64,000 bases of DNA from an uncultured Methylomirabilota bacterium (GTDB taxonomy: Bacteria > Methylomirabilota > Methylomirabilia > Methylomirabilales > 2-02-FULL-66-22): NCBI GenBank assembly GCA_963845565.1, contig CAWJSJ010000005.1:64001-128000 (forward strand), written 5' to 3'. The stretch's first letter is position 1. Every line of letters starts with the position of its first letter. The translations under genes were made by a program, and so were the position numbers. The notes beneath the pieces were generated by a model that saw only the letters and a program-made list of their open reading frames with translations, was not told the DNA's origin and did no database searches. Shown here piece after piece: positions 54,421 to 54,983 of this stretch.

Positions 54421-54983
54421 TGGCCACAAGACGCACAAGAAGCACAGGGGTATGGAGCGAGGGCTAAAGCGAACCACACGGCGTACAGGACCCGAAGAAT
54501 AACGGCGACCGTGGAGGGCTGATCGCAGGGGGCGGCGCACTCATGGATGATCGTGAGATCTTGACCCTGTGCGACCGGATTCGGGAGATCAGCCTCGCCT
54601 TACACGGGTACTTGCGGCATGGGCACCTGGAGAAGGTGTATGAGAACGGATTGGGCCATCGTCTACGAAAAGCCGGGATCGGTTTTGAGCAGCAGTATCC
54701 GCTGAAGGTATCCGATGAGGACGGTGCGACGCTTGGAGAGTATTACGCAGATTTCCTTATCGAAGGCTGTCTCATAGTTGAGTTGAAGGCCTGCAAGGCG
54801 TTGGCCGCTGAGCATACCGCCCAACTGCTCGGCTACCTGCGCGCCTCGCGCATGGAGCACGGTCTGCTTATCAACTTCGGAGCCAGCCGACTCGAGATTC
54901 GCAAATTCAAAATCTAGCTATCGTCCGGCTGTGCACTCTTTTTCCTCGTGAATATCTTGTGCTTCTTGTGCCTCTTGTGGCCA
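54421..54983. mobile_element. 563-bp element with 26-bp terminal inverted repeats carrying a GxxExxY gene
   Basis: 54421-54446 TGGCCACAAGACGCACAAGAAGCACA vs reverse complement of 54958-54983 TGGCCACAAGAGGCACAAGAAGCACA (25/26). Confidence 0.65.
54543..54917 (+). CDS. GxxExxY protein (PD-(D/E)XK nuclease-like)
   Basis: GHLEKVYE motif, YYADFLIE...IVELKA, AQLLGYL, GLLINFG; 124 aa. Confidence 0.93.
   Translation: MDDREILTLCDRIREISLALHGYLRHGHLEKVYENGLGHRLRKAGIGFEQQYPLKVSDEDGATLGEYYADFLIEGCLIVELKACKALAAEHTAQLLGYLRASRMEHGLLINFGASRLEIRKFKI

What the first reader, a model, noticed from the sequence alone, without database searches (positions are those of the whole stretch)
54421..54983. GxxExxY nuclease-like gene boxed by 26-bp inverted arms made of tandem 9-mers: candidate minimal mobile element
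Seen: the only ORF in this 563-bp segment is a 124-aa GxxExxY protein. It is bracketed by a 25/26 inverted repeat whose arms are tandem CACAAGANG-like 9-mers, each capped at the outer end by the palindrome TGGCCA. It sits between a core gene and the pyr promoter, with no transposase and no clear target duplication. Known: GxxExxY proteins resemble PD-(D/E)XK nucleases, are often multicopy and have no established function. Inference: the gene plus repeat arms may be a transposase-free mobile unit, with the arms acting as recognition sites or folding the transcript into a long stem.
Basis: partly seen in the sequence, partly recalled or inferred. Interest (0 to 1): 0.8.

Follow-up and report, generated by a model that had tools for sequence, protein, structure and literature searches.

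The report
Repeat-armed GxxExxY nuclease cassette
A tiny gene predicted to encode a DNA-cutting enzyme sits between two mirror-image runs of 9-base repeats that also occur without the gene at about 30 other places in this genome, and because each branch of this gene family keeps its own repeat across many bacterial groups, the protein likely recognises these repeats and helps spread them.

Summary
Observation confirmed: 25/26 inverted arms around a 124-aa GxxExxY gene. The arm is a genome-wide family: 40 copies, 9 inward-facing pairs, 8 of them gene-less. Of 12 relatives with this junction, one has a broken full cassette, one arms only, ten no such arms. Flanking inverted repeats occur at 67 of 80 close homologs from over ten phyla versus 0 of 71 control windows. 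Arm type follows the protein clade, not the host. Arms behave like sequence sites rather than a selected RNA stem. The TGGCCA cap is not conserved, and no target duplication or precise excision was found. Best reading: a selfish cassette whose PD-(D/E)XK protein binds and cuts at its own arms; cutting and mobilisation are untested. It resembles REP/RAYT and Ssn/NTS in design but fails both families' defining features. Ten literature searches found no report of the pairing. This scan noted the same design before on other DNA (at least 8 genomes, and this genome's second copy). This locus adds full, broken, truncated and arms-only states.

The parts
54421..54446 (+). Left arm, three tandem 9-nt units (family 'A'), 12 nt after the upstream stop codon
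54447..54542 (+). 96-nt leader; no sigma-70-like promoter found, so read-through from the upstream gene is inferred
54543..54917 (+). GxxExxY / PDDEXK_3 gene, 124 aa, putative catalytic E30, D70, E80, K82 intact; GC 0.556 and GC3 0.685 against GC3 0.859 and 0.916 in the spermidine-synthase-like gene and pyrB
54918..54957 (+). 40-nt trailer between stop codon and right arm
54958..54983 (-). Right arm, inverted copy (25/26)
52831..54408 (+). Host gene upstream: fused MFS/spermidine-synthase-like (start codon chosen by me within ORF 52714-54408); not part of the cassette
54998..55142 (+). Host pyr control region: TTGAC hexamer kept in the relatives shown (promoter inferred; the consensus scan did not call it) and PyrR leader 55031-55142 with terminator 55106-55135; not part of the cassette

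Best explanation
This is a 563-bp cassette of one small gene between two inverted arms of tandem 9-base repeats; the gene product is predicted to be a PD-(D/E)XK nuclease that likely binds its own type of arm as DNA, likely cuts at or near it, and so likely helps the arms and the cassette spread to new gene boundaries as selfish DNA. SHOWN: the anatomy; the tight gene-arm pairing across phyla; one arm type per protein clade; many unrelated sites; decay by nonsense mutation, internal deletion and gene loss into gene-less arm pairs; copying of gene-less pairs between loci. INFERRED: the three units per arm are binding sites for several protein subunits; expression is by read-through from the host operon; breaks are joined by host repair or recombination, which would explain ragged ends, nested and stacked arms and the lack of target duplications. 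UNTESTED: binding, cleavage, single- versus double-stranded substrate, and the route between species.
For: (1) Pairing. An inverted repeat scoring 12 or more lies between the 250-nt flanks at 67 of 80 close homologs and 0 of 71 control window pairs; 58 of 73 for relatives of the genome's second paralog and 28 of 30 for family members in related genomes. (2) Specificity. 72 of 73 loci of the paralog's clade carry CAGAT-type arms and none the A type; among 79 loci of this gene's clade, 0 are CAGAT-only and 1 matches both. On a tree of 189 proteins the arm label needs 16 changes against 85.4 shuffled (0 of 200), and one host genus holds several protein clades, each with its own arm. (3) In this genome the two commonest intergenic arm families (37 and 37) are the two with a cognate gene; two families without one have 15 and 3. 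All 3 genomes with an A-clade gene are among the 6 of 21 with A arms. (4) Mobility. 64 different upstream neighbours among 78 loci. At this junction the arm state needs at least two changes on the host tree (AU p 0.016). Three gene-less pairs of this genome are missing at the orthologous junction of a sister genome with 92-97% identical flanks. Three related composite pairs sit at unrelated sites. (5) Decay cycle. Broken ortholog in G004; stop codon in G010's copy at another site; nonsense allele in a conspecific contig; an arm pair in G010 enclosing only the last 25 codons of the gene. (6) Active-looking enzyme. E30, D70, E80 and K82 are invariant in 70 sequences and shared by both clades; dN/dS is 0.03-0.18 in the 8 pairs above 78% DNA identity; the model has pLDDT 95.9 and a restriction-endonuclease-like fold. 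(7) Site-like arms. In 40 within-genome pairs partners are no more alike than non-partners (114 mismatches against 111.3 +/- 5.1), and a single arm forms no hairpin.
Confidence: 0.55

Rival explanations
1. Domesticated host tool, as proposed for SsnA/NTS and RAYT/REP: the protein recognises the arms, but its selected job is to cut or filter incoming or exposed DNA that bears them. The spread of arms is secondary.
For: Single copy per clade in this genome; dN/dS 0.03-0.18; rare on plasmids (6 of 72,556) and not found in 50,697 phage records; the same site is kept across several Verrucomicrobia genomes. Precedent: PMC11893778 (abstract and sections 7, 8, 12 read) and PMC5581495 (abstract read).
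Against: Frequent loss and breakage in this genus. The clade is scattered over more than ten phyla at mostly different sites. Four of 7 listed conspecific differences in the ORF change or end the protein, against 1 of 16 in the neighbouring gene (the table was cut, so this is a partial list).
Confidence: 0.22
2. Passenger gene: the arms are ends of a MITE-like element moved by an unrelated transposase acting in trans, and the GxxExxY gene only rides between them.
For: Gene-less pairs of about 100 bp look like MITEs and have been copied between loci. A one-armed 170-bp unit is present or absent with 5-bp direct repeats at two sites, reciprocally between this genome and G009. Arms persist in genomes where no cognate gene was found.
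Against: A passenger would not track arm sequence clade by clade. No A-arm pair within 3 kb in this genome encloses anything larger than this gene. No target duplication at two-armed units. Loops of most pairs are unrelated.
Confidence: 0.12
3. RNA-level element: the arms pair in the operon transcript into a long stem that is processed out or stabilises the message, like a 23S rRNA intervening sequence (recalled, not looked up).
For: The cassette sits on the transcribed strand between operon genes. The left arm is within 30 nt of a same-strand stop at 37 of 68 loci, and the downstream neighbour is on the same strand in 30 of 37 loci with a Pfam hit. The predicted transcript does close the stem. 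At paralog-clade loci the two arms agree at variable positions 81% of the time against 55% expected across genomes.
Against: No partner covariation within genomes (40 pairs, p 0.73). No clear excess of sense-strand G-U wobble (111 against 85, p 0.07; 9 against 7, p 0.8). 22 of 40 arms here have no full partner. The cross-genome agreement is also expected from a genome-specific consensus.
Confidence: 0.1

Closest known systems
Ssn nucleases with NTS/SRM repeats (SsnA; Chenal et al. 2025, PMC11893778; abstract and sections 7, 8, 12 read)
   Same: Small single-domain nuclease gene flanked by its cognate repeat; the repeat is also scattered without the gene; clade-specific protein/repeat pairs; no transposase.
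   Different: Ssn is GIY-YIG, this is PD-(D/E)XK. NTS is a self-folding hairpin, whereas these arms are tandem direct repeats with no hairpin of their own. ssDNA-specific cleavage is shown for SsnA and untested here. The paper's main text does not mention GxxExxY or PDDEXK.
REP/REPIN with RAYT (TnpA-REP) (PMC5581495 and PMC8266576, abstracts read; PMC3733652, passages read)
   Same: Single-copy gene between cognate repeats; inverted gene-less doublets dispersed between genes; stacked mosaic arrays; co-variation of enzyme and repeat.
   Different: RAYT is an HUH tyrosine transposase and REPs are palindromes with a short tag. RAYTs are reported as mainly vertically inherited and housekeeping-like, while this cassette is patchy, often broken and spread across phyla.
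Insertion sequences and MITEs (general knowledge)
   Same: Terminal inverted repeats with several short internal repeats, a central ORF, and internally deleted derivatives.
   Different: No DDE, HUH or recombinase fold among the top 50 fold matches; no target duplication; ragged ends; unrelated loops in most gene-less copies.
GxxExxY / PDDEXK_3 family (TIGR04256, PF13366; PMC3424549, one table passage read)
   Same: The protein is a member above both curated cut-offs; the table lists function unknown and multiple transfers.
   Different: The flanking arms and the clade-to-arm code appear in none of the passages or listings seen.

Membership tests
GxxExxY / PDDEXK_3 | Profile match above curated cut-off | tested here: met
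   TIGR04256 113.8 bits (cut-off 35); PF13366 102.1 bits (cut-off 22)
PD-(D/E)XK nucleases | Restriction-endonuclease-like core with conserved E, D and (D/E)xK residues | tested here: met
PD-(D/E)XK nucleases | Metal-dependent nuclease activity | not testable with these tools
   needs purified protein
Ssn/NTS | GIY-YIG domain | tested here: not met
   The only Pfam and NCBIfam hits are PF13366 and TIGR04256, covering residues 9-122 of 124
Ssn/NTS | Repeat unit forms its own hairpin | tested here: not met
   Single arms fold at 0 and -1.4 kcal/mol with DNA parameters
Ssn/NTS | Gene flanked by cognate repeat that is also dispersed in the genome | tested here: met
Ssn/NTS | Site-specific ssDNA cleavage | not testable with these tools
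   needs in vitro assay
REP/REPIN-RAYT | HUH (Y1) transposase | tested here: not met
   The whole protein is covered by the PDDEXK_3 profile
REP/REPIN-RAYT | Palindromic REP unit | tested here: not met
   Tandem direct units, no self-hairpin
REP/REPIN-RAYT | Inverted gene-less doublets between genes | tested here: met
   8 doublets, all inward-facing, 38-56 nt apart
IS / MITE | Terminal inverted repeats | tested here: met
IS / MITE | Target-site duplication | tested here: not met
   No signal in 68 two-armed loci; old copies could have lost it. A 5-bp repeat was seen only at a one-armed derivative.
IS / MITE | Recognised transposase fold | tested here: inconclusive
   None among the top 50 of 48,161 representative chains; absence from that list does not exclude one
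Intervening sequence (RNA-excised) | Stem conserved by compensatory change and removed from RNA | tested here: inconclusive
   No within-genome covariation or wobble bias; no RNA run was laid on the locus

The most novel reading that the evidence does not exclude
GxxExxY proteins are the mobilising enzymes of a third class of repeat-propagating minimal elements, built on a bare 124-residue PD-(D/E)XK core rather than an HUH transposase or a GIY-YIG nuclease. Each clade reads its own tandem 9-10-base code, cuts at the outer end of the arm, and moves the cassette and its gene-less pairs to gene boundaries and into older arm pairs, with no transposase and no target duplication. The family would be a natural library of very small sequence-specific nucleases with matched sites.
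Probability: 0.35. Interest if true: 0.87.

Novelty: new variant of a known kind. Interest (0 to 1): 0.7.

Why it matters
It gives a very common family of unknown function a specific, testable substrate: its own flanking arm, with a natural negative control in the arm of the paralog from the same genome. It would also explain an abundant class of intergenic repeats in environmental bacteria. The comparable discovery for GIY-YIG proteins (Ssn/NTS, PMC11893778) yielded a new enzyme class. If cutting and mobilisation hold, this is a transposase-free route by which small repeats spread.

Full report
Observation. The arms lie at 54421-54446 and 54958-54983, 25 of 26 complementary and 511 nt apart. 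They enclose a 124-aa ORF, 54543-54917, that passes the curated cut-offs of TIGR04256 and PF13366. The left arm starts 12 nt after the stop of a fused MFS/spermidine-synthase-like gene. The right arm ends 14 nt before a TTGAC hexamer kept in the relatives shown, ahead of a PyrR leader that scores below Rfam's gathering threshold. No sigma-70-like promoter was found in or around the cassette. The ORF is poorer in GC than its neighbours (GC3 0.685 against 0.859 and 0.916).

The arm is a genome-wide family. The 5.36-Mb genome holds 41 matches against 0 in a 2-Mb Markov control. A stricter scan gives 40 arms: 9 pairs, all facing inward like this cassette, 8 of them gene-less with 38-56 nt between the arms, and 22 without a full partner. 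The TGGCCA cap varies among copies and is incidental. The genome's second GxxExxY gene (contig C6, 37% identical) is flanked by a different 9-mer family built on CAGAT. These two families are the commonest intergenic ones among eight patterns tried (37 and 37; next 15 and 3).

The same junction in relatives. Of 40 relatives searched, 12 have both flanking genes at this junction. G004 has the full cassette with a frameshift and a stop. G018 has a short arms-only pair. Ten have no A arms; four of these carry other tandem-unit hairpins or another repeat-flanked gene. On a tree of the host genes the three arm-bearing genomes are not one clade (AU p 0.016), so there was either one gain and a loss or two gains. 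Conspecific contigs in runs X1 and X7 keep the cassette. X1's copy has a nonsense codon at K85, and a minor X7 contig has a frameshift. Four of 7 listed ORF differences alter or end the protein, against 1 of 16 in the upstream gene (the table was cut). In G010 an A-clade gene with a stop sits at another site, and a second arm pair encloses only the last 25 codons of such a gene (E 0.004). That is the expected intermediate between full cassette and gene-less pair.

Across bacteria. The 80 best of 292 confirmed homologs in the genome collection (59-76% identical; more than ten phyla by record title) show a flanking inverted repeat in 67 cases, against 0 of 71 control window pairs. They have 64 different upstream neighbours among 78 and 60 downstream among 77. 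The left arm lies within 30 nt of a same-strand stop in 37 of the 68 loci with both arms. I scanned downstream ORFs for 65 of 77 loci, dropping 12 redundant ones; 30 had a Pfam hit on the same strand, 7 on the opposite, 28 none. The hits are mostly ordinary metabolic and housekeeping genes. The 80 best metagenomic relatives of the C6 paralog (7 too short to score) carry CAGAT arms in 72 of 73 cases and never the A type; among 79 scorable A-clade loci none is CAGAT-only. On a quick ML tree of 189 proteins the arm label needs 16 changes against 85.4 shuffled, and one host genus holds several clades, each with its own arm. Caveats: long-branch warning, labels set after seeing the arms, and 11 of 80 rows in the A clade labelled otherwise. 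Ten distant viral homologs have no arms, so the pairing is not universal in the family.

Site or stem. A single arm does not fold. In 40 within-genome pairs, partners differ at 114 positions against 111.3 +/- 5.1 for shuffled partners, and sense-strand G-U pairs are not clearly favoured (111 against 85; 9 against 7). Against this, at paralog-clade loci the two arms agree more than expected when genomes are pooled (81% against 55%), which a genome-specific consensus would also give. The arms therefore look like sequences held to a consensus one by one, as protein-binding sites are. That they can still pair is not in doubt.

Evidence on movement. Three gene-less pairs of this genome are absent from the orthologous junctions of G009, whose flanks are 92-97% identical, while four others are shared. 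Three composite pairs, with A arms nested inside older arms of another family, are related to each other and sit at unrelated sites; one of these sites is empty in G018 and holds another small element in G009, G012 and G013. At the C6 locus, stacked pairs and a duplicated 33-bp spacer vary between close strains. No precise empty/filled pair was found for a two-armed unit, no target duplication, and the one within-species loss is an imprecise 130-nt deletion. A one-armed 170-bp unit is reciprocally present or absent between this genome and G009 with 5-bp direct repeats; which enzyme moved it is unknown. Arm number and gene presence are only loosely linked. Phages and plasmids do not look like the vector.

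Mechanism. Most likely (0.55) this is a selfish cassette. It is read through from the host operon; the protein binds the three units of its own arm type and cuts nearby; host repair then yields new insertions, nesting and ragged deletions; the gene decays and leaves arm pairs behind. Recognition of the arm by the protein is the better-supported step (about 0.8 by my estimate); a causal role in spread is weaker. Rivals are a domesticated Ssn-like function (0.22), a passenger in a MITE moved in trans (0.12) and an RNA-level element (0.10).

Comparison and novelty. The design matches Ssn/NTS (PMC11893778; abstract and sections 7, 8, 12 read) and REP/RAYT (PMC5581495 and PMC8266576, abstracts; PMC3733652, passages). 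It fails their defining features: the enzyme is neither GIY-YIG nor HUH, and the repeat is not a hairpin. PMC3424549 (one table passage) lists PDDEXK_3 as function unknown with multiple transfers. Ten searches found no report of the pairing; supplements and subscription journals were not seen. I had stated the REP/RAYT-like reading before looking up earlier notes of this scan. They describe the same design in at least 8 other genomes and at this genome's C6 copy, and gave the lead to the Ssn paper. They are not independent support. Verdict: a real, widespread nuclease-and-repeat system not found in the papers searched; a new variant of a known kind; interest 0.7.

Noticed in passing
G000:C2:1832430-1832610 (L227) against G009 (L230); G009 L173:996-1163 against G000:C2:1601981-1601985: A one-armed unit of about 170 bp bounded by 5-bp CTCAG direct repeats, reciprocally present or absent in two sister genomes; its far end is shared between the two copies. 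Mover unknown.
   Followed up: partly
G000:C2:711640-711800, C2:1848830-1849000, C3:99290-99440 and others: A-type pairs nested inside older arms of other GxxExxY repeat families; the composite appears to have been copied as a unit.
   Followed up: partly
L225:1750-2500 (G000:C6:45250-46000): Second GxxExxY gene with CAGAT arms, stacked gene-less pairs and an exact 33-bp spacer on both sides; the number of stacked pairs differs among close strains.
   Followed up: partly
L217:609-715 and L222:648-753: A 105-bp element with 40 or more matches listed in each of G009, G012 and G013 sits right after stop codons, here directly beside A-type pairs; in G012 a short form is flanked by TAA repeats.
   Followed up: no
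L240, L241, L242 (G009, G013, G012): Another palindromic element of 160-180 bp occupies the post-stop junction that holds an A-type composite in G000 and is empty in G018.
   Followed up: no
L005, L008, L014, L015 (same junction in G012, G002, G001, G011): 7- and 8-mer tandem hairpins, and in two genomes an unrelated cysteine-rich gene after a 7-mer pair, occupy the site held here by the cassette.
   Followed up: no
window 20371-20482, 23178-23230, 30943-31018, 45465-45522, 58765-58785, 63635-63655: Tandem heptamer arrays, several in inverted pairs.
   Followed up: no
G000 arms at C2:169725, 642889, 812238, 2384767 and others: Several partnerless arms start about 14 nt after a stop codon and share an RCCGR word before the arm.
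   Followed up: partly
L063, L085, L105, L125: A subclade of the cassette sits directly upstream of N6-methyltransferase genes in several phyla.
   Followed up: no
L226:12125-12254 (G000:C2:652124-652253): A contig of run X14 lacks 130 nt: most of a gene-less pair plus the purine-rich stretch before the next gene's start, leaving half an arm.
   Followed up: partly
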